Virus record (IMG/VR): IMGVR_UViG_3300042261_000976
Location: 4,627-68,626 of that record
Direction: 5' to 3' (one strand)
Length of the DNA: 64,000 nt
Origin: a virus
Positions 4,500 through 57,900 of the stretch are shown piece by piece. Both the position numbers and the translations under genes were made by a program. The notes below the pieces were generated by a model. The model searched no databases. It worked only from the letters and a program-made list of their open reading frames with translations, and had not been told where the DNA came from. Numbering within the stretch: the first letter of the stretch is position 1; each line of letters begins with the position of its first letter.

Positions 4500-4780
4500 G
4501 TAAAAACGATAAAATAATAAAAAAATTTAGTATCTTTGAGAATAAAATCTTTGGATTTAAATCTTTAGATTATGTTGATAGTTTTGCAGAACTCTTTACC
4601 GTTATATCTGAAATGAAAAGAAAAAAGATAATAGACGGTGAAGGGAATTTATTAATTGATCCATATGAAATAGGGCATAAAGTTCCAGGGTTTGATGATT
4701 TATTCGAAGAGACAGAAGATTATTTTGCAACTTTAGCTATAGTTAAAGATATACTAGATAAGTATTATAAAGTTATATGA
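4496..4780 (+). CDS. hypothetical protein
   Basis: track ORF, ATGA-coupled to neighbours. Confidence 0.45.
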   Translation: MSKNDKIIKKFSIFENKIFGFKSLDYVDSFAELFTVISEMKRKKIIDGEGNLLIDPYEIGHKVPGFDDLFEETEDYFATLAIVKDILDKYYKVI

Positions 4781-9066: not shown

Positions 9067-10361
9067 TAACTAAATATAGATTATTCGAAAGAGGGGATGA
9101 AGATGAAATAGAACTCGGTCCAAAGATTAAAATGAAACTTGGTCCTGATGGAAAATATAGTATGATTTCACAAACACCTGATCCAACATTTGATTATGTT
9201 TTATCATTACCAAGCGGCGAAGTCTTATTAATAGACGATGTTGATGTATTTAAAAGAGTAACCGATAAAGGATTAGCATCTTACACATATTCATTTAAGG
9301 GTAAAGTTCTTAATTGTTATGTATGTAGAGATGATGAATTCGATAAAGTAAGAGAATACGTTGAGGAAATAACAAAGAATAGAAAAGTTGATGATAAAAC
9401 TATAGATGTATGTAAAGAATTCAGTAAAGAAATGAGTAAAATTCTTAAAAAGAAACATGTTATAGCATATATTGAGAATATTAATAACTTAAAGATGAAT
9501 TATTATTATCTTATAATTCCAGATTTAGAAATTAACAAATCTTATTATAAACAAAAAAACACAGATATGTTAACTGTTTTACAGAACATGAAAGCTAAAT
9601 ATCCAAATTCTGTTTTTGCTTACACTGAAAGATTGCATAGAAGTGATGTAAGATATTACGGACTTCCAGATAGATATGACCAAAAAGGAAATATTAAAAA
9701 AGAAGAACCAAAAAAAGAAACACTAAGACCAACTCTAAGGTCGTCATCTAAAAGAAAGAACCCTGCTGAGGTTTGTAATGAAATAAAAGATAAAGTTAGT
9801 AAAATAACTAAAAGAAATTACGATTTAGAACATTACTATAGAGAAGATGGAGATTTTAGTTATTTTAATATTCCACCAAAGGATATATCTTTCTTTGACA
9901 ATTTTGGAAAAACAAAAACAAATTTCCTTATTTATAAATTTAGTGAAGCTTATCCATACATGGAGATTGGATGGTTAAGTGATTCTAATTCCGCTAAAAA
10001 GTGGGAGAGTGGCATATTTGTAAGACCTAAAGAAATAAATATAGAAGAAAATAAACTAGAGATTTCAAGAGAAATCAAAGAAGAATTATCAAAATTAACC
10101 AAAAATCCTTATAAAGTTGGAGTAGGAACAAAAAGTAACACATATTATATAGTAGGCGATCGTACTTATTTACAAGGAGATGAACTAAATAAAATTTTAT
10201 CTGTCCTCAAACAAATGCAACAAAAATATCCAGACAAAAGATTTGAATGGATACATGGTCACTCAGGTCTTCAATTTATAAAAGACAGATGTGATGGTAA
10301 TGTTGATATTGTAGAAAAATTACCAGATGCATCAAGTGTGCTCCCTGGCGTCCCATTTTAA
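9057..10361 (+). CDS. hypothetical protein (434 aa)
   Basis: track ORF overlapping previous by 10 nt. Confidence 0.5.
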   Translation: MALITKYRLFERGDEDEIELGPKIKMKLGPDGKYSMISQTPDPTFDYVLSLPSGEVLLIDDVDVFKRVTDKGLASYTYSFKGKVLNCYVCRDDEFDKVREYVEEITKNRKVDDKTIDVCKEFSKEMSKILKKKHVIAYIENINNLKMNYYYLIIPDLEINKSYYKQKNTDMLTVLQNMKAKYPNSVFAYTERLHRSDVRYYGLPDRYDQKGNIKKEEPKKETLRPTLRSSSKRKNPAEVCNEIKDKVSKITKRNYDLEHYYREDGDFSYFNIPPKDISFFDNFGKTKTNFLIYKFSEAYPYMEIGWLSDSNSAKKWESGIFVRPKEINIEENKLEISREIKEELSKLTKNPYKVGVGTKSNTYYIVGDRTYLQGDELNKILSVLKQMQQKYPDKRFEWIHGHSGLQFIKDRCDGNVDIVEKLPDASSVLPGVPF

Positions 10362-11083
10362 GTCCCGGCTGTTCCGAAAGCTTTACCGTCAAGTAATGTT
10401 GGATCCTTCTTAAACTCATCAATTATCTTATTCCATTTTCTTTGATCAAAGATAACTAAATCATTTGGCTTAGCTTCTATTTGTTCTTGCGGATTTTTAG
10501 TGTCTTCTAATTTTTGTTGTTCGTTTATTTCTTTATGTTCGTACTCATCCCTCAATTCCTTATAGAAAGCTTTCATTTTACTTAAAAGTTCACTCATTTT
10601 CATTGAACTTTCTCTTATTTCTTTATTGTGTGTACTTACAGCAACATGCATATCAGGATCGTTCGCTCCAGCATCAATTTGTTTCATTGCGTTGATAAGA
10701 GCCATTTTAGCACAAGACAAGGAAAATTTAATATCACTAATTGTTTCAGCATCTAATTTTATTATACTTCTAACGCTTCTTCTACTCATTTCTTCGTCTT
10801 TTAAATATAAACTGGATATACATTCAAGAGTCTCCTTAGCGTCTTCCTTTATAGTCTCCATATCCCTCTCGTAATCGTGTTTGGTATATTCAAAATCGAG
10901 ACCAGGAAGTAAGTCTTTAGGCGGAACTAAATCTTGAGGCAAAGTATCTATCTCACTTAACATCGAATTTATCTCATCTTGGAGATTTGAAATACTTCCT
11001 AATTTTTTATTAATATAATCTTTATCTTTTGGTTCCTCATCTTTCTTTTTCTTTGAACCTTTTGGACGACCTCTTGTTGTCAT
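10358..11083 (-). CDS. hypothetical protein with N-terminal AT-hook (RGRPKGSKKKK)
   Basis: RGRP AT-hook DNA-binding motif; coiled-coil rest. Confidence 0.5.
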   Translation of the reverse strand: MTTRGRPKGSKKKKDEEPKDKDYINKKLGSISNLQDEINSMLSEIDTLPQDLVPPKDLLPGLDFEYTKHDYERDMETIKEDAKETLECISSLYLKDEEMSRRSVRSIIKLDAETISDIKFSLSCAKMALINAMKQIDAGANDPDMHVAVSTHNKEIRESSMKMSELLSKMKAFYKELRDEYEHKEINEQQKLEDTKNPQEQIEAKPNDLVIFDQRKWNKIIDEFKKDPTLLDGKAFGTAGT

Positions 11084-11169: not shown

Positions 11170-12918
11170 ATGTTTAATATTTTAACCTTTAATGAATTAT
11201 TAGAACAACAAAACATAGGTAGTTATAAAATACCAATGCCTGTAGTATATCCAAGTACAAATTATGCTGGAAAATGGACAGAACAGAATTATGATGATAT
11301 AGTTGGGCAATTAGTATCTTTTGACGGTCAAGAAAAAGAAATTCAAGATATTTATTCAGATAATGGAGAAATATTTTTTGTAGATAAAGACACTAATGTA
11401 TTTGACGTGAAAGGTAAATCAGTTGAAATAAAAAATAGAGTTCCTAGAGTTTATAATAAATTAGATCCTTACGGTGAAGAAGTATGGGAAGCATATCATA
11501 AATCACAAGGAAAATTAAACGGTAAATACATAAGATTTATTTTTGATATAGAAGACGAAAATAATAGGATAGCAGTTAGAAAAAATGTTCCTTATGAAAT
11601 ATCTTATTTCAATGGTGTTGATTATGTAATTAGAGCTGAACATGGAAATTTTGAAGTAGATCCTTTCTATGTTGAAGGTGAAGATTTTTTAGTAGTGACT
11701 CAAAAGGAACTTGATGAAAGAAGAAAATTGTGGGCGGAAAAACATCCATATGATCCTTATGGAGAAGAAATATGGGAAGGTATGAAAAATTATACAGAAT
11801 TTGTAAACGAAGCTAGAGCTTATCATATAAAGAAAGAAGATTACGTTCAATGTGGTGGAAATTTTGGATGTTATACAGTTGGTGGTAAAACTATAAAAGC
11901 AATGGTTCTTTGTAAAGGTAAATATGCCAAAGTATTAAATTCCAGATATAAAATGGATAATCACTATGAATTCGAGTTGGAATTCGAAGAACCTGTAGAT
12001 ACAAAGGACGAGAATAAACAAAAAATAAAAATTAAAACTTTTTATATAAATCAGAATCAGGTTGCAAATTTAAGAATTATAAAGAATAAAGATTTTTTAA
12101 GATGGAAAGCTGGATTCACTTTACCATATAAGGCGACATCAACATTTGATAAATGTATTAATAGATATGGTATGCAATTTCCTTATAAATATTATGATGT
12201 ATCTTATTTTGATGTGGACGCCGAAAAAAATGATATTGTATCTTTCTTACCAGCAAATAAGTCTAATCTAGTTGTAGATGAGAACGGCAACAATTTACCA
12301 GGAGAAAACGCTTATACTTCTAAATTTAGACAAAGTACTAAAGTTGGTAGAGTTATTAGAAAGTTGAATGATCAATTAACAGATCAACAAATTGAAGAGT
12401 TTACAACTAAATATAAAGCTAATTGGAATTATTGGAATAAAACTGGAGCAACATTTATTGATGTTGTTACAGGAGATAAAATAGCATATTGGTATGACTC
12501 AACAAGATATGCTCCTGGAAATGGAACATTAAATAATTCTTGTATGAGAGATCCAAGTAAATCTTATAGAATACAAGATTTCTATGGAAAATATCCAGAT
12601 AAGATTGCACTTTGTATTCTAGTGGATGTAGAATCTCAAATGCTTCTAGGTAGAGCATTAATATGGAAATTGGATAAACCTGAGGGTGTTATATTTATGG
12701 ATAGAATTTATTATATAAAACCAGAACACGAAAAATTAATTGAGGATTACGCTAAGAAACAAGGCATGCAAACAAAATTATCCAATTATCACTTAAACAA
12801 TAGAATTGAAGTGCATATTGATTATAAACCAGGTACACGTAATGGAAGCAGTATAAGTTTACCGTATTTGGATACTTTCCAATATGATAGTAATAAAAAG
12901 AAGTTTATAAATAAATGA
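11170..12918 (+). CDS. paralog family member 1 (C-terminal GGG[TS]LNNSCMR domain), carries 2x DPYGEE-W
   Basis: start moved to ATG 11170 (MFNILTFNELLEQ) after promoter motif; C-terminal ~230 aa shared with 14059..15219 and 15274..16455. Confidence 0.6.
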   Translation: MFNILTFNELLEQQNIGSYKIPMPVVYPSTNYAGKWTEQNYDDIVGQLVSFDGQEKEIQDIYSDNGEIFFVDKDTNVFDVKGKSVEIKNRVPRVYNKLDPYGEEVWEAYHKSQGKLNGKYIRFIFDIEDENNRIAVRKNVPYEISYFNGVDYVIRAEHGNFEVDPFYVEGEDFLVVTQKELDERRKLWAEKHPYDPYGEEIWEGMKNYTEFVNEARAYHIKKEDYVQCGGNFGCYTVGGKTIKAMVLCKGKYAKVLNSRYKMDNHYEFELEFEEPVDTKDENKQKIKIKTFYINQNQVANLRIIKNKDFLRWKAGFTLPYKATSTFDKCINRYGMQFPYKYYDVSYFDVDAEKNDIVSFLPANKSNLVVDENGNNLPGENAYTSKFRQSTKVGRVIRKLNDQLTDQQIEEFTTKYKANWNYWNKTGATFIDVVTGDKIAYWYDSTRYAPGNGTLNNSCMRDPSKSYRIQDFYGKYPDKIALCILVDVESQMLLGRALIWKLDKPEGVIFMDRIYYIKPEHEKLIEDYAKKQGMQTKLSNYHLNNRIEVHIDYKPGTRNGSSISLPYLDTFQYDSNKKKFINK

Positions 12919-17000: not shown

Positions 17001-17035
17001 AAAAAAACCATCTGTTATTTCAGATGGTTTTTTTA
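17001..17035 (-). terminator. intrinsic terminator hairpin (accatctg / cagatggt) with flanking A/T runs
   Basis: 8-bp stem, 6-nt loop, T-run on minus strand 3' of gene 17042..19330. Confidence 0.45.
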
Positions 17036-17041
17036 ATATTA

Positions 17042-19330
17042 TTACCAACTTCCACCTGCTCCACCGCCTCCGCAAGATCCACCGCCGAATCCTCCGAAAC
17101 TTGATGAACTATCTCTCCTTCTCCTATCCTCTTCCTCTTCTTCCTCACGTTTACGTCTTCTTTCTTCTTCTCTTCTTCTTTCTTCTTCTCTTCTTTCTTC
17201 TTCTCTTCTTCTTTCTTCTTCTCTTCTTCTTTCTTCTTCTCTTCTTTCTTCTTCTCTTCTTCTTTCTTCTTCCTCCTCATTTCCTCTACCCACTCCAATT
17301 ATTTTATCAAGAGCGGCCAAAGTTGTACCAAGAAGAATAGAAACTCTCATAACATCTTTCATTGGAATATTATCATCCCATGCTTCTTCTCCATAAGGAT
17401 CTTCCTTGGCATGTCCGCCAGCTCCTTTATCCTTATTATATTGAGCTATAATAGCCTGGGCTTTTTGCGCAGAACCTCTATCAAGATAGCCGTTTTGAAT
17501 ATATGAATTTATATCTTCTAGTTTTTTATTCAATGTGGTAGGTCCAGCATCAACATATTTTTTAGCCTGCATTATATCATTGAATCTTTGAACAGGTTTT
17601 TCCATTTCAGTACCTAAGGCATGAGCTTTTCCAGCATATTGTGTTAATAACTGCATTCCCTTTGTTAAATCTGTCATGTAAATGGCACCTATTTGATCTA
17701 CAAAATTCTTCAAAGATTCTATATCGCCATCTTTCACATTAACTTGAGTGTCATATCCCATTTCTATTACTTTACCAGTATATTCTTTAGCTTTTGCTAA
17801 TTTAGCCATAAGAGCTCTTTTTACTGCATCGAATCCTTCAATATTGGATTTTATTCTTTGGAAATCTTGATCCATTTCTTTATACTGATTATAGTATGCG
17901 GTTACTCTTCCTAATAATTTTTGATATTTACCCAAAGATTCGTTAGAAACATCAATGTTTTCGAATTTCAATTCATTCATTATTCCTAAACATGTATTAG
18001 CAACATCTTTCATTTGAGTAGGAGCATCTTCATAACCTTTCAATTGATTAAATGTGTTAGTTACTGAATTTTTAGTTTTAATTATGCCTTGCTCAATTCT
18101 TTTTATATTTTCTAATGTTGCTATGTATCCATTAAGTAAAGTTGATACTTCCGTTAATCTTTGTTCATTGCTGATTTTTTTCTTTTGTAGTTCAGCGACA
18201 GCTTGTTTCATAGAATTAAGAACTTCATTGTCGTTAAAAATAGGATCTCCAGTGTCTATAAGATCTGCTATATTTAAGTCTAAAGCAGCCAAATCATCTT
18301 TTGTTCCTTTTATTTTTCTAGATAATTCTTTTCTTTTCTTATACGATGATGCTATTAGATAACCCACTAAACCTAATACTAAAGCTAATAAAAGGAATTC
18401 CCCAGCTCCAATAAAGAAACTTTTAACATTTTCTTTATGAATTTGTTCATATTTTTTATCTAGTTCTTTCTTTCTCTCTATTGGAATATTACCAAATTCT
18501 TGTTTCATTTTTCCTATTAATTCAGAAAATCCTTTTTCATAATTGCCTTCTTTAAAGTTTGATACAAGATAGTTTTCACCATATCTTTTACAAAGAGCGT
18601 CAGGCAATATATCTTCCATTCCATAACCTGTAGCAATCCACCATTTTCTATCGCCCATACTAGCCAATATAAGAATGCCATTATTGGCTCCTTTTTTACC
18701 TATTCCCCATCTATTGAAAGTTTTTGTTGCTAAATCTGAAGCATCTTGATCTTGTAACGAAGGTAAAGTGAGGACTGCTATTTCAACACCAGTAAGTTTC
18801 TCGTATTTGAACAATACCTGATTTAATGAGTCCTCGAATGTGGGTCTCATAAAATCCCCATAATCACTTATTAAAGCTATTCCATTACCATACTTGGCTG
18901 GTTGGACTTTTGTAACATCCATACTAACGGCAGAATTGGATGGTGGAGTAAAACTCCATTTATAATGAGTTGATTTATTGCTGGTATAACTGTCACATTT
19001 TAGATATGTTTTTACCATATTATAATTCAAATTAGTACCATTTAATTTGTTGAATTCCTGTAACTTTTTAATTATTTCTTCTTGATCATCATCACTAACA
19101 TCGGTATCTCTTGTTAAAGTCGCCGCGAATTTAGCCAAATCTATAGTTCCTTGTGGAACTTTTTGAGCCCATTCTATTTTAGTATTAAGATCAGCCGCTT
19201 GTACTTTAGGTGGTACTATACCTAAATTTAAGAGCATCATGAAGGTTGCCAACCAAGTTTTCCAACCTTCTTCTTCGTTTAACATGTCTGTAGTCAGATA
19301 TTTTTCGTATGATAATATAAATTCTGCCAT
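17042..19330 (-). CDS. TPM (TLP18.3/Psb32/MOLO-1) phosphatase-domain membrane protein with coiled coil, DPYGEEAW, (EEERR)n and Gly-rich C-tail
   Basis: GVEIAVLTLPSL..WGIGKKGANNGILILASMGDRKWWIATGYGMEDILPD; TM helix; C-term SFGGFGGGSCGGGGAGGSW like bacterial YgcG-type proteins. Confidence 0.7.
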   Translation of the reverse strand: MAEFILSYEKYLTTDMLNEEEGWKTWLATFMMLLNLGIVPPKVQAADLNTKIEWAQKVPQGTIDLAKFAATLTRDTDVSDDDQEEIIKKLQEFNKLNGTNLNYNMVKTYLKCDSYTSNKSTHYKWSFTPPSNSAVSMDVTKVQPAKYGNGIALISDYGDFMRPTFEDSLNQVLFKYEKLTGVEIAVLTLPSLQDQDASDLATKTFNRWGIGKKGANNGILILASMGDRKWWIATGYGMEDILPDALCKRYGENYLVSNFKEGNYEKGFSELIGKMKQEFGNIPIERKKELDKKYEQIHKENVKSFFIGAGEFLLLALVLGLVGYLIASSYKKRKELSRKIKGTKDDLAALDLNIADLIDTGDPIFNDNEVLNSMKQAVAELQKKKISNEQRLTEVSTLLNGYIATLENIKRIEQGIIKTKNSVTNTFNQLKGYEDAPTQMKDVANTCLGIMNELKFENIDVSNESLGKYQKLLGRVTAYYNQYKEMDQDFQRIKSNIEGFDAVKRALMAKLAKAKEYTGKVIEMGYDTQVNVKDGDIESLKNFVDQIGAIYMTDLTKGMQLLTQYAGKAHALGTEMEKPVQRFNDIMQAKKYVDAGPTTLNKKLEDINSYIQNGYLDRGSAQKAQAIIAQYNKDKGAGGHAKEDPYGEEAWDDNIPMKDVMRVSILLGTTLAALDKIIGVGRGNEEEEERRREEERREEERRREEERRREEERREEERRREEERRRKREEEEEEDRRRRDSSSSFGGFGGGSCGGGGAGGSW
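17110..17285. repeat. 15-nt tandem repeat (tcttcttctcttctt..) encoding (EEERR)n
   Basis: visible periodic repeat; generates spurious overlapping ORFs 17020..17298 and 17101..17340. Confidence 0.8.
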
Positions 19331-19337
19331 TTTATTT

Positions 19338-19679
19338 TTATTTTTTTTCTTTATTTTTCATAAATTCTACTGATTTGAGTAAAGATTCATATCTATATTT
19401 AGACAATTCATATTTTGATTTTTCCCTAGATACTGGGACATTTGACACTTTTTCATATTTATGTACTCTTGTAAATCTTTCTAATCCGTCTGGAACCATA
19501 TTTTCTTCTATAGCTTTATTTTTAGCCTCATCTTCTGATCTAGCACATAAATAACCAACAACATCAAAATCTCTTCCAATTCCTATTTGATATATAGAAT
19601 ATTCATCATTCCAATCTTCTTCACCATATGGATCTACAACTTTTTTTTGTTCAAATATTTTAAATTTCTGTATGTTCAT
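19338..19679 (-). CDS. hypothetical protein, N-term MNIQKFKIFEQKKVVDPYGEEDW
   Basis: ATG at 19679 overlaps the stop of the upstream gene (ATGA); track start 19694 is TTG. Confidence 0.5.
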   Translation of the reverse strand: MNIQKFKIFEQKKVVDPYGEEDWNDEYSIYQIGIGRDFDVVGYLCARSEDEAKNKAIEENMVPDGLERFTRVHKYEKVSNVPVSREKSKYELSKYRYESLLKSVEFMKNKEKK

Positions 19680-20251
19680 TTCTCCTCCTCCCAATCTTCT
19701 TCGCCATATGGATCTCTCTCTTTTAAGACTTTTTCTCTTTGTCTTAATATTTCTTTTTCTTCTTCTGTTGGTTTAAATGTATCTGGTAAAGATGATCTAT
19801 ATTTTAATTTATCAGCCAATACGTCCATTTTATTAACACAATTAGCTACAGATTTTCTATTTCCATCTTTTACAGCCTGATATATTGTAACTTTTATATC
19901 TTGTAATTGTTCTTCTATATCTGGGTTCTCTTCTAATAATTCTTTGGCTTTACGATATTTTCTATCAGTCTTAATTAGATGGGATCTATTACTTTTTATA
20001 TTTATATAAAGATCTCTGAATAAACCTCTATACCAAGCTATTCCTGTTGGTAATATAAAAAGAGATCCTAAAATATAAATTAATATATGCCATCACATAT
20101 CCATACTCATTAGATTAAATAATTGACCTAAAGCTCCAATAGAAAAGAAAAAAGCTATAGCTTGAGCATCATCATTTTTAAGTTTTCTCATCATAAAATC
20201 ATGATATACACTTTCATTTAGATATTCGTTATATGTTTGTATATTGTTCAT
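19676..20251 (-). pseudogene. tandem paralog of 20248..20853 interrupted by in-frame TGA (20093-20095); ends DPYGEEDWEEEK
   Basis: MNNIQTYNEYLNESVY.. then TGA then WHILIYILGSLF.. continues in the same frame for 139 codons; aligns to neighbour paralog. Confidence 0.5.
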
Positions 20252-20853
20252 CTTTTCTCCCACCAATTTTCATTTTTAGGTTCATCCTCCAATTTTTCTT
20301 CCCCGTATGGGTCGTAGGCTTTCTTGGCTTTAATTCTGGCTTTCTCTTCTTCAGTGTATGCAAATAATTCACCAAGAGATTGTTTTTTCTTCAATTGTTT
20401 TGATAATTTATAAATATCATGAACACAAAGAGATATATTTTCTTTGTTTTCATTTTCTATAGCATCTCTCATTCTATTTTTTATATCATTCAACCTATCC
20501 TCTATTTCTGGATATTCTTCAATCATATCCATCATTTTTTTGTATTTTTTATTTGTGCTTCTCAATAACGTTCTTACTCTCAAAGAATCGTATGGATTTC
20601 TAAAAATGGCTCTGAGAATTAAAACAAAAGCAGGAATCGATAAAAAACCACCAATTAAAATGACTATTAAATGTCTCAAAGGAGTAACTATATCATCAGT
20701 ATCAAAAGGTAAATGTGCTCCTTGACAAAGACCAGCTAAAACAACCATAATTAATGTTATCATTCCCTCTTTATTATCTATATCGAAACGTTTATTTATC
20801 CAATCATAGAAACCTTCATTTAAATAATCGTCATAATATTTTAGATTGTTCAT
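20248..20853 (-). CDS. membrane protein (2 TM) with C-terminal DPYGEEKL; paralog of 19676..20251
   Basis: likely start MNNLKYYDDYLNEG at 20853; ATGA-coupled to next gene. Confidence 0.55.
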   Translation of the reverse strand: MNNLKYYDDYLNEGFYDWINKRFDIDNKEGMITLIMVVLAGLCQGAHLPFDTDDIVTPLRHLIVILIGGFLSIPAFVLILRAIFRNPYDSLRVRTLLRSTNKKYKKMMDMIEEYPEIEDRLNDIKNRMRDAIENENKENISLCVHDIYKLSKQLKKKQSLGELFAYTEEEKARIKAKKAYDPYGEEKLEDEPKNENWWEKR

Positions 20854-21176: not shown

Positions 21177-21431
21177 TTAAATAGATCGGTCCCCTTATTC
21201 AGTAATGAATAATGATAAAGGCTTAAACTGCTGGAATCCCCTTAGAGCTTTTTTAACTACAACATAATTTGAAAAAATAAGTGTGAAAGTTTAAAAATAA
21301 AAAAGATTGGGCAATCAGCATCCAAACATCGTATAGATGGAGGTTCAGAGACTATAATAGCCAATCCTTAAAGGATTATTGTATAGTCCAGACTACAAAA
21401 GAAATTGCTTATGAAAGTAAGTGTAGTAAAG
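21177..21431 (+). other. group I self-splicing intron (255 nt, no ORF) interrupting dnaK
   Basis: exon ends in U pairing with G of internal guide GGTCCC (P1: gggaU/Gtccc); intron ends in G; P7-like GTTCAGAGACTATAA (21343-57) and GTATAGTCC (21381-89) resemble the Tetrahymena P7 strands. Confidence 0.65.
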
Positions 21432-23277
21432 TGATTTAGGGACTACGTTCTCGGCAGTTGCAGTTATGGAAAATGGAGTACCTACAATTATTGTAAATAG
21501 TGAAGGAGAAAGAACAACTCCTTCTGTTGTCGCTTTCCTTGATAAAGGAGAGCGAAAAATTGGTAATCCAGCTCGTAGACAGGCTGTTACAAATAGTAAT
21601 AAAACTGTTCATTCCATTAAGAGGTTTATGGGAGAACATTATGATAGACTAACAAATGAAATTGATCGTTATGCTTATAAGGTAGTTAAGAAACATGATA
21701 TGCCTTATATTGAAATTGATAAAAAGGAATACTCTCCACAGGAAATTAGTGCAGTTATTCTTCAAAAGATGAAAAAAACTGCCGAAGACTATCTTGGTCA
21801 AAAAGTTGAAAGTGCTGTTATTACTGTTCCAGCATGGTTTAATAACGATCAACGTCAAGCTACAAAGGAAGCAGGTGAAATTGCTGGATTTAAAGTAGAA
21901 CGTATTATTAATGAACCTACTGCTGCAGCTTTGGCTTATGGGCTTGATAAGTTGAAGAAAGATATGAAGATTGTGGTTTTCGACTTTGGAGGTGGAACAT
22001 TTGACGTTTCTGTTCTTGATTCGGGTGATGGTGTATTTGAGGTTAAATCTACATGTGGAGATGTCCACTTAGGAGGTAACGATGTTGACGACGTTATCGT
22101 TGACTGGTTAGTAGATGAATTCAAGAAAGACAACGGAATAGATTTGAGAAAAGATCCAATGGCTTATCAAAGATTGAAAGATGCAGCTGAAAAGGCAAAG
22201 ATTGAACTTTCTTCTAATACAGAAACAGAAATAAATCTTCCTTATATCACTGCCATAGATGGCATGCCAAAGCATATGGTATCTAAATTGAGTATAAGTA
22301 AATTCGAACAAATTGCTGACAGTGTATTTAAGAGACTTATTCCAATTAGTGAAAAAGCTCTTAGGGATTCAGGAATAGAAAGAGATAAAATTGATGAGGT
22401 TATTCTTGTTGGTGGTTCAACTCGTATTCCAGCAGTTCAGAAAATAGTAAAAAGTATTTTTGGAAAAGAACCTAATAGAAGTATTAATCCTGACGAAGCA
22501 GTTGCTTGTGGAGCAGCAATTCAAGGTGGAATTATTAGTGGTGAAGTAACAGATATTCTTCTTCTTGATGTTACTCCTCTTTCACTCGGTATTGAAACAA
22601 TGGGTGGAGTAATGACAAGATTAGTAGAAGCTAATACTACAATTCCAACAGAGAAATCACAAATATTCTCTACCGCTTCTGATAATCAGCCATCTGTAGA
22701 AATTCATGTTCTTCAGGGTGAAAGACCAATGGCGAGTCAGAATAAGACTTTAGGTAGGTTTCATTTGGATGGTATTCCACCAGCTATGAGAGGTATTCCA
22801 CAAATTGAAGTAAAATTTGACATCAACGCTAATGGTATTCTTGAAGTTATAGCTATTGATAAAGCAACAGGAAAGAAACAGAACATTAGAATTGAGAATT
22901 CTTCAACTCTTCCTAAAGAAGAAATCGAGAGAATGAAGAATGAGGCAAAAGAAAATGAGGAAAACGATAGAAAAGAAAAGGAAAAGATAGATAAGCTCAA
23001 CCAAGCAGATTCGATGATTTTCCAGACCGAAAAACAAATCAAAGATTTCGGAGACAAATTGACAAACGAAGATAAGAACAATTTGAACGAATCTCTTGAT
23101 AAATTGAGAACAGCACACAAGGGTCAAAATTTAACAGATATTGACAATTGTATGAAAGAATTAAATGAAAAATGGAATTTGATTTCAACTCGAATGTATC
23201 AACAAACATCTTCACAACAACAGGGACCAAAAGAAGAACAACCTGTAGAAGATGTAGAATTTCAAGAGGTTAAGTAA
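21432..23277 (+). CDS. dnaK: DnaK (Hsp70) exon 2, bacterial DnaK type
   Basis: [54 protein letters not shown]-terminal EDVEFQEVK; near-collinear with E. coli DnaK. Confidence 0.9.
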
Positions 23278-23310: not shown

Positions 23311-24999
23311 TGTCCCATATGATATATCTGATGCTCCTCCAATATTCCACGTTGGACCTTTATAATCTTCATCTACCATAATTTTTCCTTCTCCACTACA
23401 ATCGTCACATTCTCCTCCCGTGCTTTTTCTGCCCCAACCTTTACAAGAAGGACATTCTATTTGTTTATAATGTTTTATTTTAGCTTTAGATTTTGGTTTT
23501 ACAACATCGTCAAATTGTTTATAAAAATCGTTTTCAATATTTGATTTTGGTTTTGATTTTGTTTTACTGGCTAAAAATGTACTTATTTCTTGTTCCTTTG
23601 ATTTTGATGATTTTACATTTTTAGATAGTTTTTCATCACTTGCACTCAAAGTGCCTGGTTCTACATACAATCTTAAAGTTTTCTCATCTTCATAATCTCC
23701 TCCGTGAAAAACTATCATCCATTTACCGTCTGTTTTTCTAACACCATCAAACTGTCCGATTTTACCATTATACTTACTACCTGGAAGATTATATTTAACG
23801 CGTTGTCCTTGTCGAAATGGTGAAGTAACTTTTTTACCAACAGGTTCCCATTTTCCTCCGCTATAATCACCATAATCTGAAGCTTTCTTAAAATCCCACC
23901 AATTATCATCATATGATTTATCGGTATCTACATATGGAGATATTTTCTTCTTTGGTTTCTCTACAACACCTAAACCTTGACAATGCTTACACGGTACTGG
24001 TAAAAGTAAGTCGTTCACATGATGTTGTGATGTTAAAGTATAACCTCTACCGTTACAATATTCACATTCATCGTATTTCGACGGATCTGGATTTCTTTTT
24101 TTCTTATTGTCGCCGTATGGCGATTTTTTCTTTTTTAATTGTGTTTCATTTGGTATAACTCCTTCGCCTCCACATTCATCACAAGGATCATCGTAAGTCG
24201 ACATAACAACACCGCTTCCCCCACATTCTTCGCATTCTGATCCGTCATTTAATTCTCCTTCTCCATCACATTCATCACAAGGATCTTCAGTTTCGATTTC
24301 TAAGGTTCCTGCCCCGTGGCAAATTGGACATTCTATGTCATCTTTATCTTCGTCTTCGTTTTCTTCTTCTTTGTCTAGTTTAAGAGCACGTAACATTTCT
24401 TCCTTTGAAATTTGTGGTAAATCTCGTCTCGCTCCGAAATCTGATATTTTCACCTTAAACGGTTCCGTTTGTTTTGGTTTTTCTTTTGGTTTAGTTGTAC
24501 CAACAACATCAACTATGCCTACTTTTCTAGCTATACTCCTTTCTCTCTCATCTTCTTCCCATGATTCTTCACCATAAGGATCTAAATCCTTCATAGCTTT
24601 TTCTTTCATATTATGTAGAATATAAGCACATTTATCTATCATGAAATCAAGAGTTTCCTTATGTTGTTCTCTTTTTGTTACTTTTATTCTTCTTTCATAA
24701 GTTTCTTGATTAAGATTATCTTTCGCTGTAAGTATATAAGTTATAACATCATCTACATCTACAATCTTCTTTATTGTAAATGTAAAATATTTCTCTACAC
24801 ACTTAGCTTCTTTCTCGTTACTATCTACTTCAAAATCATCATGTTTTAACATTCTTATTTCCTCTTCAGAGAATAAGTCAGCTGGACGTTTTTCTATTCT
24901 TTCGCGCTCTTCATCGTCGCGATGGTATTTTAGTTTACCAGAACTAAGTTTTCTTTTCAATTCTTCGTTTATCTTATTATATCTTTGAATATAATCCAT
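23308..24999 (-). CDS. DnaJ-type zinc-finger (7x CxxCxGxG) protein, no J domain; contains DPYGEESW
   Basis: CPICHGAG, CDECDGEG, CEECGGSG, CDECGGEG, CEYCNGRG, CKHCQGLG, CPSCKGWG, CDDCSGEG. Confidence 0.6.
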   Translation of the reverse strand: MDYIQRYNKINEELKRKLSSGKLKYHRDDEERERIEKRPADLFSEEEIRMLKHDDFEVDSNEKEAKCVEKYFTFTIKKIVDVDDVITYILTAKDNLNQETYERRIKVTKREQHKETLDFMIDKCAYILHNMKEKAMKDLDPYGEESWEEDERERSIARKVGIVDVVGTTKPKEKPKQTEPFKVKISDFGARRDLPQISKEEMLRALKLDKEEENEDEDKDDIECPICHGAGTLEIETEDPCDECDGEGELNDGSECEECGGSGVVMSTYDDPCDECGGEGVIPNETQLKKKKSPYGDNKKKRNPDPSKYDECEYCNGRGYTLTSQHHVNDLLLPVPCKHCQGLGVVEKPKKKISPYVDTDKSYDDNWWDFKKASDYGDYSGGKWEPVGKKVTSPFRQGQRVKYNLPGSKYNGKIGQFDGVRKTDGKWMIVFHGGDYEDEKTLRLYVEPGTLSASDEKLSKNVKSSKSKEQEISTFLASKTKSKPKSNIENDFYKQFDDVVKPKSKAKIKHYKQIECPSCKGWGRKSTGGECDDCSGEGKIMVDEDYKGPTWNIGGASDISYGT

Positions 25000-25490: not shown

Positions 25491-26045
25491 ATGGATATAT
25501 TTAGACCTAAAATAGAAGATGAGGGTAAATCATTTATAATTAGACCTTTACTAAATGCTAAAGGTTTGAAAAATAAAGAACCACATATAGTTCATTATGA
25601 TATAGGATTAAGAGGATTTATGAATGTGCCAATACAGGGGTATTTATGTTTTGCTCTTGTCGATGATGAATTAAAAATCATCAGATTTGGAAAAGTCATG
25701 TTAGATTTTATTAAAAGTAATAGTGAACATGGTGCAGACTTTCTTTTCATGAATAATGATAAGGCTATTAAAATGAATGTATCAGTAAAAAGAATTAATA
25801 ACGATCGTGAAAAAGCAGCTTTTTTTAACCCTTCTTATGAAATTGTTCAAGATAATAAATATAGGTTTGATGATACTCCTGAAAAAAGAAAATACATAAG
25901 CGATCTATTAATGAATACAGAACTCGACTTAAATGACGCCTTAAAAGAAGAAATAGAAAAAGTCGCAAAACTTAAAGAGAAAGAAGAACAAAGACTGAAA
26001 TTCGCCGACGTTGATCCTTACGGTGAAGAAGATTGGGGATTCTAA
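25491..26045 (+). CDS. hypothetical protein ending ..DVDPYGEEDWGF
   Basis: track ORF; C-terminal motif. Confidence 0.5.
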   Translation: MDIFRPKIEDEGKSFIIRPLLNAKGLKNKEPHIVHYDIGLRGFMNVPIQGYLCFALVDDELKIIRFGKVMLDFIKSNSEHGADFLFMNNDKAIKMNVSVKRINNDREKAAFFNPSYEIVQDNKYRFDDTPEKRKYISDLLMNTELDLNDALKEEIEKVAKLKEKEEQRLKFADVDPYGEEDWGF

Positions 26046-38687: not shown

Positions 38688-39326
38688 ATGGTAAACTCTT
38701 ATTCCCGTATAATTATAATTATGATTAAACTGCACTCCAGTCAATTTACAACTATCTTTATATGCTTGTCTTAACATCTTTACTGGATAATTTCCATTAA
38801 GTACAAAAGATTCTGATTTCCCGTGGCCATCTGAAGACCAGTCACCAATTAAAATAATAAATTTATGATCCTTTATAACGGGTTCATCGTCTACTTCCTC
38901 TTCATCTCCGAACTCGCCTTTATCATGCCATTTAATAATAGATTCATTGAATTTATAAAAACTTTTCAAATGTTTCATTGATTCATCAGTGCTCCAATCT
39001 TCTTCACCGTAAGGATCTTCGGGTGATACTATTTTTTTCCTTTCTTTATAATATACTATCATGTTAGTTGTTTCATCTACAATACTACTTGATGTTCCAA
39101 CTTGCATAACAGCCCCATGTCTAACTGGTTCGGAATTTCCCTCATAAATAAATTCCAATCCGCCATTATAGGAATATCTGGGCCAATATTTTACTCCTAA
39201 TATTCTAACTTCTTTTTTACCAAGATGTGTCCACAAAACATTATTCTCTATAAGTTCATTCAAATAATTTGAAGATTCTTCAAATCCCATAGATGATATT
39301 AAATCTTTGATGATTATTTTATCCAT
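38625..39326 (-). CDS. hypothetical protein with internal DPYGEEDW; candidate tail-assembly-chaperone-like (G) ORF directly upstream of the giant repeat protein
   Basis: position and overlapping -1 ORF mirror the lambda G/GT arrangement. Confidence 0.5.
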   Translation of the reverse strand: MDKIIIKDLISSMGFEESSNYLNELIENNVLWTHLGKKEVRILGVKYWPRYSYNGGLEFIYEGNSEPVRHGAVMQVGTSSSIVDETTNMIVYYKERKKIVSPEDPYGEEDWSTDESMKHLKSFYKFNESIIKWHDKGEFGDEEEVDDEPVIKDHKFIILIGDWSSDGHGKSESFVLNGNYPVKMLRQAYKDSCKLTGVQFNHNYNYTGIRVYHLKKDMKKLKKDKFVLNMTMV

Positions 39327-39339
39327 TATTGATATTTAT

Positions 39340-39786
39340 TTACCATATCTCCTCGCCATAAGGATCGTTTTTTAAGTATAAAAGGTCATTTTCACGAGCA
39401 TCATCTATTATATCTTCTATGTTTGATAACACTTCTATGGTTTTTTGGATTATAGATTCTATTTTATCTGGACTAATTTTAGCCATCCTTATAGAATTTC
39501 TAGCAAACTCTTCAATTTTATCAGTAACAGATATAGTCGATGGCCATATAGGATCTGGAATCTTTTTAAAATCTGATTTTTCTATATCTTCTATCCCTGT
39601 TTTTATCGACCCGTCTGAATTTTTATATATTCCACCACCAGCTGCATTAAAGACTGTTCCTTTTTTTATATTTATTTTTCTTCTATTAAAAACATCACTA
39701 ACATCTGTATCTTTTGTGGCTACATAATAAGAGTGATAATCTGACCAATCTTGATCTTCTTTTATGTAATTATAAAAACTTATCAT
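39340..39786 (-). CDS. hypothetical protein ending ..NDPYGEEIW
   Basis: C-terminal motif immediately before stop. Confidence 0.5.
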   Translation of the reverse strand: MISFYNYIKEDQDWSDYHSYYVATKDTDVSDVFNRRKINIKKGTVFNAAGGGIYKNSDGSIKTGIEDIEKSDFKKIPDPIWPSTISVTDKIEEFARNSIRMAKISPDKIESIIQKTIEVLSNIEDIIDDARENDLLYLKNDPYGEEIW

Positions 39787-44225: not shown

Positions 44226-44498
44226 ATGAACAATTTAAGAGCTTTTGAAGAATTTAATAATGTGGATCCATACGGTGAAGAAAAATGGAACGATGTGAAA
44301 GAAGAGACTTTAGATGGAGTTTTTTCTGTTATAAGTCAACATTATGAAGGGTATGCACCAACACTAGTAATTGCGGATTCCAAAGAAGAAGCTTTTCAAA
44401 AATATAACGATTGGGTTGATACTGAGCCACATGGAATCTATACTCCCAGACAATGTGAAGATATCGATCACGTTTTCGAAGCAAAAGCATTAAAATAA
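44226..44498 (+). CDS. small protein MNNLRAFEEFNNVDPYGEEKW..
   Basis: CTS-like leader directly followed by DPYGEE-W. Confidence 0.5.
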   Translation: MNNLRAFEEFNNVDPYGEEKWNDVKEETLDGVFSVISQHYEGYAPTLVIADSKEEAFQKYNDWVDTEPHGIYTPRQCEDIDHVFEAKALK

Positions 44499-49319: not shown

Positions 49320-49378
49320 TAACTTTAATTATTTTTTATCTTACTTTTTTTATATATAGATAAAAAGTGGATCGAATT

Positions 49379-54356: not shown

Positions 54357-54700
54357 AATTTTATAGTTATTTCATTATCTCCTATTATAATTGGGTATCT
54401 AGTATCCAGTGTATAATAATCATCTCTATCATTACCCATAACAATATATCCATCTTCATCTAAATATATATTATTTACAGTTTCACCAATTACTTTTTTA
54501 TATTTATAAGAAACATACATTGAACTTGAAATAAATAAAATGAAATTAAATTTTATGACTTTATTTAAAATCAACTCTTTTAATTTTTCTATTTTTTCAT
54601 CAATTTCCATTTCAGACAAATCATATTCAGTATTCCAATTCTCTTCACCGTATGGATCTATATCTATTGATTCTAATATGTATTCTTTGAATCTTTTCAT
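54353..54700 (-). CDS. hypothetical protein MKRFKEYILESIDIDPYGEENW..
   Basis: leader + motif at N-terminus. Confidence 0.45.
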   Translation of the reverse strand: MKRFKEYILESIDIDPYGEENWNTEYDLSEMEIDEKIEKLKELILNKVIKFNFILFISSSMYVSYKYKKVIGETVNNIYLDEDGYIVMGNDRDDYYTLDTRYPIIIGDNEITIKL

Positions 54701-57208: not shown

Positions 57209-57518
57209 AACTTATTTCAGTCCATTCTTCTTCGCCATATGGATCTATATCCATATGTTCTATATAATCTTTTTCTCTTATTTTCTCCATTTTTTTTAAG
57301 AAATCTGGGTCTGCTGGAATGAATCTACTCAAGAACCATCCTTCATCACCATCTACTGCACACATCGTATCAGTGCCATCGAACCAAACTCCAGTCAATG
57401 TATAGACTTTATCTTTGACCAGAGCTCCATTAGGTTTAACACAAATAACTTTATCCCCGGCACGAAGATTTAGAAGATTTCTATTTTCATTTATATATGT
57501 TAAATAATTTTTAATCAT
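57201..57518 (-). CDS. hypothetical protein MIKNYLTYINENR.. ending MDIDPYGEEEWTEISYD
   Basis: start moved to internal ATG 57518 (CTS-like leader, removes overlap); track start 57554. Confidence 0.4.
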   Translation of the reverse strand: MIKNYLTYINENRNLLNLRAGDKVICVKPNGALVKDKVYTLTGVWFDGTDTMCAVDGDEGWFLSRFIPADPDFLKKMEKIREKDYIEHMDIDPYGEEEWTEISYD

Positions 57519-57900
57519 TATTCCAGTCCTCCTCACCGTATGGATCAGCTTCAAGATTGACTATTGGATTTCTCTCTTGTAATATTACAATTTTATCTTC
57601 TGGTCCTGGTGCTATTTTATATGAATTTATATTATTAGGATCTTCGGCAAAATACAAATACCAAGTATTATTATTTCTTATATCACTTGTTGTCAAAACA
57701 ACATCTATTCTTCTAACATTAATTGTATATACACGTTTATTATCATAATATAAATATATTCTTATTCTTTTCCCCATGTATTTTTCACGAAGAAAAACTA
57801 AAATTAATTTGGCATCTATTTTCTCAAATCCTCCATTTTTTTCTATTATCTCAGCAACTGTTGTTGGATCTATTTCTTCATATTTTTCCTTAAATTTCAT
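57511..57900 (-). CDS. hypothetical protein ending ..EADPYGEEDWNND
   Basis: C-terminal motif. Confidence 0.45.
   Translation of the reverse strand: MKFKEKYEEIDPTTVAEIIEKNGGFEKIDAKLILVFLREKYMGKRIRIYLYYDNKRVYTINVRRIDVVLTTSDIRNNNTWYLYFAEDPNNINSYKIAPGPEDKIVILQERNPIVNLEADPYGEEDWNND

What the first reader, a model, noticed from the sequence alone, without database searches (positions are those of the whole stretch)
19676..20853. Tandem paralogs, one interrupted by a single in-frame TGA
**The pair.** Genes 20248..20853 and 19676..20251 (minus strand) are clear paralogs. Both start MNNLKYYDDYLNEG / MNNIQTYNEYLNES, have two TM helices, and have a helical tail ending in DPYGEE-W.

**The interruption.** In the downstream copy the frame is interrupted by one TGA at 20093-20095. 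This falls exactly at the start of the second TM segment (..SMDM * WHILIYILGSLF..), and the frame continues cleanly to the DPYGEEDWEEEK end.

**Consequence.** Because the only downstream ATG leaves fewer than 60 codons, the ORF track shows nothing here.

**Options.** This could be a recent pseudogene, a sequencing error, a selenocysteine, or programmed read-through. Long ORFs elsewhere in the window argue against genome-wide TGA recoding.
Basis: seen in the sequence. Interest (0 to 1): 0.55.

Follow-up and report, generated by a model that had tools for sequence, protein, structure and literature searches.

The report
Recent opal nonsense mutation in duplicated phage gene
One of two neighbouring copies of a small membrane-protein gene in a huge bacteriophage has had a conserved tryptophan codon (TGG) turned into a stop codon (TGA) by a single base change, which looks like an ordinary, very recent gene knock-out and not a special decoding trick.

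Summary
On the minus strand, 20248-20853 (201 aa, intact) and 19676-20251 (191 codons) are true paralogs (31% identity, E=1e-29). The second has one in-frame TGA, at 20093-20095.

The window comes from a Mahaphage-like huge phage. Its closest record is the 735-kb LR756501.

All four orthologs of the interrupted copy read TGG TGG CAT where the window reads TGA TGG CAT. The stop is therefore a one-base G>A change of a conserved Trp codon. It is present in the JGI contig and in two Logan assemblies, so it is not an assembly slip.

- **No recoding signal.** It is the only TGA in 64 kb with coding sequence on both sides. TGA ends 14 of 72 confident ORFs, including both paralogs.
- **No suppressor.** The window has no tRNA. 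LR756501 has tRNA(CUA) and tRNA-Trp(CCA) but no tRNA(UCA), and no convincing in-frame TGA.
- **No SECIS-like hairpin.**
- **No downstream decay.** The 138 codons after the stop have not evolved faster than the intact orthologs.

Best reading: a very recent nonsense allele (nascent pseudogene, perhaps leaky through tRNA-Trp) of a dispensable orphan gene.

Of more interest in passing: a DPYGEExW motif in about 92 ORFs of LR756501, and a disrupted dnaK 5' end next door.

The parts
20248..20853 (-). Copy A: intact 201-aa member of an orphan family. Layout: N-terminal MNNLKxYDEYLNEG motif, two TM helices, a cytoplasmic helical bundle, and a DPYGEE tail. It ends in TGA inside an ATGA overlap with copy B.
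   Evidence: Exact protein P0001 is in the JGI and Logan assemblies. AlphaFold model has mean pLDDT 78.7 and is all-helical.
19676..20251 (-). Copy B: 191 sense-codon frame plus terminal TGA, interrupted once at codon 53. It is orthologous to intact genes P0003, P0004 and the L003/L004 genes (57-65% identity).
20093..20095 (-). In-frame TGA (opal) at codon 53, in the context ATG TGA TGG CAT. Orthologs have TGG TGG CAT, so this is a single G>A transition of a conserved Trp codon at the start of TM2.
   Evidence: codon-level comparison in L003, L004, L005, L006. (identical in the independent Logan contig L002).
20096..20251 (-). The 52-codon N-terminal fragment that is actually translatable under the standard code (N-terminal motif plus TM1 only).
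   Evidence: Called as a separate 52/56-aa protein in Logan and JGI (P0034, P0045).
19676..20092 (-). 138 codons plus stop downstream of the TGA (TM2, helical domain, DPYGEEDW tail). The frame is open and conserved, but it has no canonical start until 19828.
   Evidence: coding score 0.39; no rate acceleration.
19676..19828 (-). 50-aa ATG ORF that gene callers report (P0028). It is simply the tail of copy B.
19338..19679 (-). Next gene in the operon (113 aa from the ATG at 19679). It carries DPYGEEDW near its N-terminus, and its start overlaps copy B's stop (ATGA).
   Evidence: The syntenic 117-aa gene is in LR756501.
17042..19330 (-). TPM-domain membrane protein (762 aa), the last gene of this minus-strand string. 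It is a conserved neighbour in the relatives.
   Evidence: Pfam PF04536, E=1.9e-36. Orthologs in L001 and L011.
21466..23277 (+). Divergently transcribed phage dnaK. It is the conserved anchor of the locus, and its 5' end is itself disrupted (see Noticed in passing).

Best explanation
**What it is**
- Copy B carries a genuine and evolutionarily very recent nonsense (opal) mutation.
- A single G>A transition changed the first Trp codon of a conserved WWH motif, at the start of TM2, from TGG to TGA.

**What follows under the standard code, which this phage uses in this window**
- Ribosomes terminate after 52 residues. The product is only the N-terminal motif plus TM1.
- TM2, the cytoplasmic three-helix domain and the DPYGEEDW tail are not made, because there is no in-frame start for 88 codons.
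- Copy B is therefore a nascent pseudogene or a strong hypomorph.

**Why the loss is tolerated (inferred)**
- Copy A sits immediately upstream and is intact.
- The family is accessory. There are 0, 1 or 2 copies at this locus in relatives, and none in any of 50,697 deposited phage records.

**Residual expression (inferred)**
- The only plausible route is ordinary low-level near-cognate reading of UGA by tRNA-Trp. By coincidence this would restore the ancestral residue.

**Shown versus inferred**
- Shown: the lesion, its ancestral state, its presence in three assemblies, the absence of other in-frame TGAs, and the absence of downstream decay.
- Inferred: termination at this codon in vivo, tolerance through redundancy, and leakiness.
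For: 1. **Ancestral state.** Orthologs in four contigs from other samples read TGG TGG CAT where the window reads TGA TGG CAT.
2. **Real in the reads.** The 1.3 kb of L002 (Logan SRR35144456) that I aligned to the window is 100% identical to it, including the TGA. The truncated 52/56-aa product is called in the JGI 114-kb contig and in two Logan contigs.
3. **TGA is a working stop here.** 14 of 72 confident ORFs end in TGA, including copies A and B. A codon-usage scan finds 20093 as the only TGA in 64 kb with coding sequence on both sides.
4. **No suppressor.** There is no tRNA in the window.
5. **Closest complete relative, LR756501.** It is syntenic with most of the window. It encodes 59 tRNAs, with two tRNA(CUA), two tRNA-Trp(CCA) and no tRNA(UCA). 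It ends 135 of 725 ORFs in TGA. It has no convincing in-frame TGA. Most apparent junctions were antisense frames of collagen-like repeat genes, and two weak ones were not pursued.
6. **Recent.** Tajima relative-rate counts give 18 vs 24 and 20 vs 18 unique changes for window copy B against intact P0003 (p=0.36 and 0.75). There is no excess downstream of the stop. Since 7.6% of possible substitutions downstream create a stop, a second stop would be expected (95%) within about 9% neutral divergence.
7. **Dispensable.** The dnaK-TPM interval holds no family member in LR756501, one in L011 and two here and in L003/L004. tblastn of both copies finds nothing in 50,697 phage records.
Against: - No read-level data could be inspected. 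Fixation versus polymorphism is unknown, and the JGI and Logan assemblies may share reads.
- The position matches Trp, which is exactly what TGA>Trp recoding would also predict.
- Huge phages of this clade are known to recode stops, and only 64 kb of a genome that is probably several hundred kb (by analogy with relatives) was available.
- The complete lack of downstream decay fits continued function as well as it fits recency.
- Five of ten TGA stops are followed at once by a second stop, against 6 of 55 for TAA. This hints that TGA may be a weak terminator here. It is confounded by the common ATGATA gene start (4/11 vs 3/28, not formally tested).
Confidence: 0.78

Rival explanations
1. **TGA is decoded as tryptophan.** The phage encodes, elsewhere in its unsampled genome, an opal-suppressor tRNA. 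This would be code-4-type recoding as in Agate, Jade and Sapphire phages. Copy B is then a full-length protein made only once the suppressor is expressed. That could be an incipient step of codon capture, or a timing device for a membrane protein.
For: - The TGA sits exactly where four orthologs have Trp.
- The downstream frame is perfectly preserved, with no rate acceleration.
- The clade is known for stop-codon recoding, and TGA>W recoding can arise among close relatives (Borges et al. preprint 10.1101/2021.08.26.457843; Al-Shayeb et al. PMC7162821).
- Another member of the same protein family, in a different phage, carries an in-frame TAG in three samples.
- There are possible tandem back-up stops after TGA.
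Against: - There is only one such TGA in 64 kb, that is in roughly 70 confident ORFs.
- TGA terminates 14 of 72 ORFs, including this very gene.
- The orthologs and the paralog have no in-frame stop.
- The window has no tRNA.
- The closest complete genome has amber-type tRNA(CUA) but no tRNA(UCA), and no convincing in-frame TGA.
- The window lineage avoids TAG (0 of 72 stops), not TGA. Any recoding tendency in this lineage therefore points to TAG.
Confidence: 0.08
2. **Sequencing or assembly artefact, or a minority variant captured in the consensus.** On this view the real phage has TGG.
For: - A single-base difference from the ancestral codon is what an error would look like.
- The Logan contigs for this phage are short (3.6-3.7 kb), which suggests modest coverage.
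- The assemblies may derive from overlapping read sets.
Against: - Three assemblies give the same base: the JGI 114-kb contig and two Logan contigs.
- The site is not in a homopolymer.
- A 114-kb contig implies adequate coverage.
Confidence: 0.05
3. **Programmed, gene-specific read-through or selenocysteine insertion at this UGA.**
For: - UGA is the codon used for Sec, and it is the leakiest stop.
- The frame continues cleanly after it.
Against: - The stop is not conserved. All orthologs have TGG, not TGA or TGY.
- The 101 nt around and after the UGA fold no better than shuffles (z=-1.1, 28 of 200 shuffles as good).
- There is no Rfam hit in the window and no tRNA-Sec.
- The position is the first residue of a TM helix.
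- Hopping or +1 shifts at AUG-UGA-UGG lead into a dead frame, as read directly.
Confidence: 0.01

Closest known systems
Nonsense-mutation pseudogenes, or opal alleles, in duplicated accessory genes of phages and bacteria
   Same: - There is a single premature stop one mutation away from the ancestral sense codon.
- An intact paralog lies next door.
- There is no restart codon.
- The lesion is lineage-specific.
   Different: No downstream decay is visible at all yet. The event is therefore very young, or the allele is still partly functional.
TGA>Trp (code 4) recoded phages: the Agate, Jade and Sapphire clades of Borges et al.
   Same: The in-frame TGA aligns with Trp in homologs. The genome is a low-GC large phage.
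   Different: - Those phages carry many in-frame TGAs concentrated in late and lysis genes.
- They largely abandon TGA as a terminator.
- They often encode tRNA(UCA), RF1 and TrpRS.
- Here there is one TGA, TGA is a regular terminator, and neither the window nor the nearest complete genome has a tRNA(UCA).
Lak / Mahaphage TAG recoding
   Same: - It is the same broad clade (best DNA matches LR756501/LR756503; Lak phages match through dnaK).
- LR756501 carries two tRNA(CUA).
- The window and L011 never use TAG as a stop.
- A family member in L007-L009 has an in-frame TAG.
   Different: The codon in question is TGA, which TAG-recoded Lak phages keep as a stop. Some even encode RF2.
Leaky UGA read by tRNA-Trp, for example the Qbeta coat/A1 read-through (from general knowledge, not tested here)
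   Same: Near-cognate tRNA-Trp inserts Trp at UGA at a few percent. Here that would regenerate the ancestral protein.
   Different: In Qbeta the stop is conserved and the extension is functional. Here the stop is a novelty of one lineage, in the middle of a membrane protein.
Bacterial selenoprotein genes
   Same: There is an in-frame UGA inside an otherwise intact ORF.
   Different: Homologs have Trp, not Cys or Sec. There is no SECIS-like hairpin and no Sec machinery in view.

Membership tests
Nonsense-mutation pseudogene / null allele | Premature stop relative to intact orthologs and paralog | tested here: met
   The stop is at codon 53 of 191. Orthologs P0003, P0004, L003 and L004, and paralog A, are uninterrupted.
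Nonsense-mutation pseudogene / null allele | Stop derivable from the ancestral codon by one substitution | tested here: met
   TGG in all four orthologs against TGA here.
Nonsense-mutation pseudogene / null allele | No alternative start that would rescue the downstream part | tested here: met
   The first ATG/GTG/TTG is 88 codons downstream.
Nonsense-mutation pseudogene / null allele | Relaxed constraint or further lesions downstream | tested here: not met
   There is no second stop or frameshift. Relative-rate tests give p=0.36 and 0.75. This is expected only if the lesion is very recent (bound).
Code-4 (TGA>Trp) recoded phage gene | In-frame TGA aligns with Trp in homologs | tested here: met
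Code-4 (TGA>Trp) recoded phage gene | Many genes carry in-frame TGA | tested here: not met
   There is one junction in 64 kb. There is none in the 20.6 kb of L011 or the other relatives, and none convincing in the 735-kb LR756501.
Code-4 (TGA>Trp) recoded phage gene | TGA abandoned as a terminator | tested here: not met
   14 of 72 confident ORFs end in TGA, 10 of them in ATGA overlaps.
Code-4 (TGA>Trp) recoded phage gene | Phage-encoded tRNA(UCA) suppressor | tested here: inconclusive
   None in the window, in the related loci or in LR756501. The rest of this phage's genome was not available.
Selenoprotein gene | UGA aligns with Cys or Sec in homologs | tested here: not met
   Homologs have Trp.
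Selenoprotein gene | SECIS hairpin immediately 3' of the UGA | tested here: not met
   MFE -19.4 kcal/mol, z=-1.1 against shuffles. No Rfam family hit.
Programmed read-through gene | Stop codon conserved among relatives | tested here: not met
   The stop is absent in all four orthologs.
Any described protein family for the encoded protein | Significant match to Pfam, PHROG, PDB or BFVD | tested here: not met
   No Pfam or PHROG hit above noise. Foldseek against PDB and BFVD gives all E>1. The profile search finds only about 27 unannotated metagenomic relatives.

The most novel reading that the evidence does not exclude
The TGA is read as Trp in infected cells. On this reading the site is a first captured opal codon in a Mahaphage lineage that otherwise leans towards TAG reassignment. 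It would be a snapshot of the very first step of stop-codon reassignment, possibly delaying synthesis of a two-TM membrane protein until late infection.
Probability: 0.08. Interest if true: 0.6.

Novelty: new member of a known kind. Interest (0 to 1): 0.17.

Why it matters
For the finding itself, little. It is one more young nonsense allele in a redundant accessory gene.

Its practical value is for annotation:
- The 52-aa and 50-aa 'hypothetical proteins' in public catalogues (P0034/P0045 and P0028) are fragments of one gene.
- The site should not be taken as evidence of code 4 or of selenocysteine.

It would matter only if the rest of this genome shows opal suppression. In that case the site would document the earliest stage of TGA>Trp capture in the largest known phages.

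The surroundings are more promising than the finding. A DPYGEExW peptide motif, not found in a phage context by the one full-text search I ran, is shared by about 92 ORFs (≥50 aa) of these huge phages.

Tried and rejected
- **Window-wide recoding.** Stop-to-stop ORF coverage is 89.7% under code 11, 92.5% under code 4 and 90.3% under code 15. The codon-usage junction scan finds no other in-frame TGA or TAG.
- **Sec.** Rejected on the fold result, the homolog residue and the absence of tRNAs.
- **Reinitiation, hopping or frameshifting at AUG-UGA-UGG.** The only nearby AUG (inside UGAUGG) opens a 21-codon dead frame, as read directly.
- **Apparent in-frame TGAs in LR756501.** Most of the 10 turned out to be antisense or off frames of collagen-like and PDVP repeat genes that have long uninterrupted ORFs on the other strand. 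Two weak ones (675675 and 340202) were set aside without a full check.
- **Tandem back-up stops after TGA as a sign of leaky termination.** 5/10 against 6/55 looked striking, but ATGATA is a common gene start whether or not there is an overlap (4/11 vs 3/28, not formally tested). It remains only suggestive.
- **Recovering the rest of the 114-kb source contig.**
  - It is not in IMG/VR.
  - The single metagenome scan returned only a different relative, L011.
  - The gene-position index holds only short Logan contigs.
- **Function of the family.** There are no Pfam or PHROG hits and no structural neighbour. The search for related loci in viral contigs found nothing.
- **Systematic pseudogene scan of the window against LR756501 ORFs.** Apart from copy B (no homolog there), it flagged only the dnaK 5' end and a TAA-shortened C-terminal tail at 10358.

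Full report
**Where the window comes from**

- The window is 25-36% G+C across 2-kb windows, mostly 25-31%.
- Its best DNA matches are the 735-kb 'uncultured phage' genomes LR756501/LR756503, followed by the other >630-kb genomes of Al-Shayeb et al. Lak phages match through dnaK.
- tblastn of LR756501 ORFs against the window shows near-complete synteny across that genome's start point, with orthologs mostly 40-85% identical.
- The window therefore belongs to a Mahaphage-like huge phage. That clade is predicted to infect Bacteroidetes (PMC7162821).
- Recognisable genes include a helicase, a TPM-domain protein, DnaK, a DnaJ-zinc-finger-like protein, a major-vault-protein-like protein, a hybrid histidine kinase, an M16 peptidase and a 5'-3' exonuclease.
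- There are no tRNAs and no Rfam families in the window.

**The observation**

- Reading the minus strand confirms two consecutive genes joined by ATGA overlaps.
- Copy A is 20248-20853 (201 aa). Copy B is 19676-20251.
- Copy B's 192-codon frame has one internal stop, TGA at codon 53 (20093-20095), and a terminal TGA.
- A and B are 31% identical over their full length (E=1e-29). The similarity continues far beyond the stop.
- Both have two hydrophobic segments. In B the stop is the first residue of the second one.
- No ATG, GTG or TTG follows for 88 codons, so gene callers report only a 52/56-aa head and a 50-aa tail.

**What the stop replaced**

- Homolog searches found few relatives. One 44%-identical ortholog of A (P0002) and two orthologs of B (P0003 at 65%, P0004 at 59%) turned up, all on short metagenomic contigs.
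- Contigs L003 and L004 carry the same A-B tandem.
- In L003, L004, L005 and L006 the codons at the site are TGG TGG CAT (W-W-H). The window has TGA TGG CAT.
- The stop is thus one G>A transition away from a Trp codon conserved in every ortholog.

**Is it real?**

- The 1.3 kb of Logan contig L002 (SRR35144456, 3.7 kb) that I aligned to the window is 100% identical to it, including the TGA.
- The truncated product is on record from the JGI 114,058-bp contig and from two Logan contigs.
- An assembly slip is therefore unlikely.
- I could not inspect reads, so fixation versus polymorphism remains open.

**Is TGA a sense codon in this phage?**

- In the window, 58 confident ORFs end in TAA, 14 in TGA and none in TAG. 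Ten of the TGA stops are ATGA start/stop overlaps, and both paralogs end in TGA.
- I trained a codon-usage log-odds model on the long ORFs and scanned every stop for coding potential on both flanks. The only TGA junction it returns is 20093. The TAA hits are adjacent genes or antisense frames.
- ORF coverage barely changes under code 4 or code 15.
- The closest complete genome, LR756501, was fetched whole.
  - It has 59 tRNAs: two with anticodon CUA, two tRNA-Trp(CCA), and none with UCA.
  - It ends 135 of 725 ORFs in TGA.
  - Most of its apparent in-frame TGAs are antisense frames of collagen-like or PDVP repeat genes. Two weak ones were not pursued.
- L011, another relative (20.6 kb), shows no in-frame stop either.
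- According to Borges et al., recoded phages carry many in-frame recoded stops in late genes. They also report that TAG-recoded Lak phages keep TGA as a stop.
- None of this fits code 4 here. The one feature that does fit, alignment of the TGA with Trp, is equally what a TGG>TGA mutation produces.

**Other decoding mechanisms**

- The 101 nt around and after the UGA fold no better than shuffled sequence (z=-1.1).
- Orthologs have Trp rather than Cys, and the stop is not conserved. Selenocysteine and programmed read-through are therefore rejected.
- The only nearby AUG (within UGAUGG) opens a 21-codon dead frame. This excludes coupling or hopping into the downstream part.

**How old is the lesion?**

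- Tajima relative-rate counts use P0004 or the L003 gene as outgroup. They give 18 vs 24 and 20 vs 18 lineage-specific amino-acid changes for the window copy against intact P0003 (p=0.36 and 0.75).
- There is no excess after the stop: 7 vs 17 and 12 vs 12.
- In the 138 downstream codons, 7.6% of all possible substitutions create a stop. A second stop would be expected with 50% probability after about 9 neutral substitutions, and with 95% probability after about 38, which is about 9% divergence.
- The lesion is therefore very young, or the gene is still under selection.

**What the gene family is**

- A profile search of 1.8 billion representatives found 41 hits. About 27 are full-length proteins of roughly 190 aa with the same layout:
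  - an N-terminal MNNLKxYDEYLNEGFYDW motif;
  - two TM helices;
  - a helical domain with KYPDIE and CIHDIY motifs;
  - an EEEK stretch;
  - a C-terminal DPYGEExW.
- None has a Pfam or PHROG assignment.
- An AlphaFold model of copy A (pLDDT 78.7) shows a TM hairpin continuing into a confident three-helix cytoplasmic bundle. It has no structural neighbour in PDB or BFVD, with all E>1.
- The family is absent from 50,697 deposited phage records, including LR756501 and Lak.
- The dnaK-TPM interval holds zero copies in LR756501, one in L011, and two in the window and in L003/L004.
- It is thus an accessory, copy-number-variable gene. Loss of one of two copies is plausible without cost.

**Conclusion**

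- The finding is a true in-frame opal codon produced by a recent TGG>TGA transition in the second of two old tandem paralogs.
- The most likely consequence is a truncated 52-residue product and loss (or strong reduction) of copy B. Its function is plausibly buffered by copy A.
- At most, low-level near-cognate reading by tRNA-Trp would restore some full-length protein.

| Reading | Probability |
|---|---|
| Recent nonsense allele | about 0.78 |
| Genuine TGA>Trp decoding by an unseen suppressor | about 0.08 |
| Artefact or minority variant | about 0.05 |
| Sec or programmed read-through | about 0.01 |

**Things seen on the way that deserve more attention than the finding**

- **DPYGEExW motif.**
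  - The octapeptide occurs 14 times in 13 ORFs of the window.
  - In LR756501 it occurs 107 times in 92 ORFs, with W at +7 in 101 of 107. It is enriched at protein termini.
  - One full-text search of the paper library found no phage paper that mentions it.
- **dnaK 5' end.**
  - The adjacent dnaK has lost its canonical start. The ATG at 21412 is out of frame and hits TGA after 7 codons.
  - The conserved DLGTT codons are in the main frame, but TAG TAA lies directly upstream of them.
  - The 141 nt aligned around this start are identical in the Logan contig.
- **In-frame TAG in a relative.** A family member in another phage (L007-L009, three samples) has an in-frame TAG.
- **TAG avoidance.** The window lineage never uses TAG as a stop.

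Noticed in passing
window minus strand: 17387-17401, 19620-19634, 19700-19714, 20299-20313, 24568-24582, 39003-39017, 39352-39366, 54644-54658, 57231-57245, 57532-57546. Plus strand: 11464-11478, 11752-11766, 26013-26027, 44265-44279. Also the whole of LR756501 (L012-L026).: - A short peptide motif, DPYGEExW, recurs in unrelated proteins: the TPM protein, the DnaJ-zinc-finger-like protein, the two-TM family, and many small ORFs.
- There are 14 copies in 13 ORFs of the window.
- In the 735-kb relative there are 107 copies in 92 ORFs, with W at +7 in 101 of 107.
- Copies are enriched in the C-terminal fifth (47) and N-terminal fifth (21) of the proteins.
- The profile search also hit proteins up to 1846 aa long with 9-12 repeats of it.
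- One full-text search found no paper mentioning it for phages.
- It looks like a proteome-wide docking, sorting, packaging or processing signal of these huge phages.
   Followed up: partly
window 21412-21468 (+), the 5' end of dnaK (ORF 21466-23277): - The canonical Hsp70 N-terminus (MKxKVIGIDLGTT in LR756501 and L011) is disrupted.
- The ATG at 21412 is in another frame and runs into TGA after 7 codons (MKVSVVK*).
- The conserved [11 protein letters not shown] codons are in the main dnaK frame but are preceded directly by TAG TAA, with no start codon.
- The first in-frame ATG (21466) would give a DnaK lacking the phosphate-1 loop.
- A +1 shift at AAG-UGA-U would join the two frames.
- The 141 nt aligned around this start are identical in the independent Logan contig L002.
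- It is either a second recent lesion next to the finding, or a frameshift site.
   Followed up: partly
L007 2283-2855, L008 2752-3324, L009 147-719: - A member of the same two-TM family in a different phage, seen in three samples, is split by a single in-frame TAG just after TM2 (…LVYLM*KSYMKKIY…).
- It is annotated as 79-aa and 107-aa genes.
- This is probably TAG>Gln recoding as in Lak phages, but only about 4-9 kb of that genome was seen.
   Followed up: partly
whole window; L011; LR756501 690585-690738: - TAG is never used as a stop by 72 confident ORFs in the window, nor by 23 in L011.
- LR756501 uses TAG for 34 of 725 ORFs.
- LR756501 carries two adjacent tRNA(CUA) genes (called 'tRNA-Pyl' by ARAGORN), yet it shows no convincing in-frame TAG.
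- The lineage may be at a pre-recoding stage for TAG, or recoded only in parts of the genome that were not seen.
   Followed up: partly
window: TGA stops at 4777, 8293, 12915, 19679, 20251, 28344, 39786, 54356, 54700, 58959: - Ten of the 14 TGA-terminated ORFs end inside ATGA start/stop overlaps.
- Half of the TGA stops are followed at once by TAA or TAG (TGATAA/TGATAG).
- This enrichment is suggestive but confounded by the common ATGATA gene start.
   Followed up: yes
L003 837-1778 and L006 166-1110: In two related phages the ortholog of copy B has no stop after DPYGEEEW. It continues into about 120 further residues (at least 314 aa), and the extensions differ between the two contigs. The C-terminal end of this gene is evolutionarily fluid.
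   Followed up: no
window 30785-33202 (-): An 805-aa protein with major-vault-protein shoulder and repeat domains (PF11978, E=1.6e-27; PF17795). It is 83% identical to an LR756501 ortholog. This is an unusual eukaryote-type domain in a phage.
   Followed up: no
window 49367-52312 (+): A phage-encoded hybrid sensor kinase of 981 aa, with three PAS domains, HisKA, HATPase and a receiver domain. It is conserved in LR756501 (70% identity).
   Followed up: no
window 10337-10360 (-): The 241-aa ORF at 10358-11083 ends at a TAA where the LR756501 ortholog continues. Similarity runs about 7 codons past the stop (…GTAGT*NGTPGS vs …GTGGINGSVGS). This is a second, harmless-looking premature stop in a low-complexity tail.
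   Followed up: partly
LR756501 112.7-114.5 kb, 122-124.5 kb, 391-396.5 kb, 422-423 kb: Long collagen-like (GPx) and related repeat genes on the minus strand. Their antisense frames mimic coding sequence with many 'in-frame TGAs'. This is a trap for automated recoding detectors.
   Followed up: yes
window 17042-17300 (-) and antisense: The TPM protein ends in an (EEERRR)n low-complexity run followed by a Gly-rich GGGSCGGGGAGGSW tail. The tail is conserved in LR756501 and L011. The repeat creates spurious overlapping and antisense ORFs (17020-17298 on the minus strand, 17101-17340 on the plus strand).
   Followed up: no
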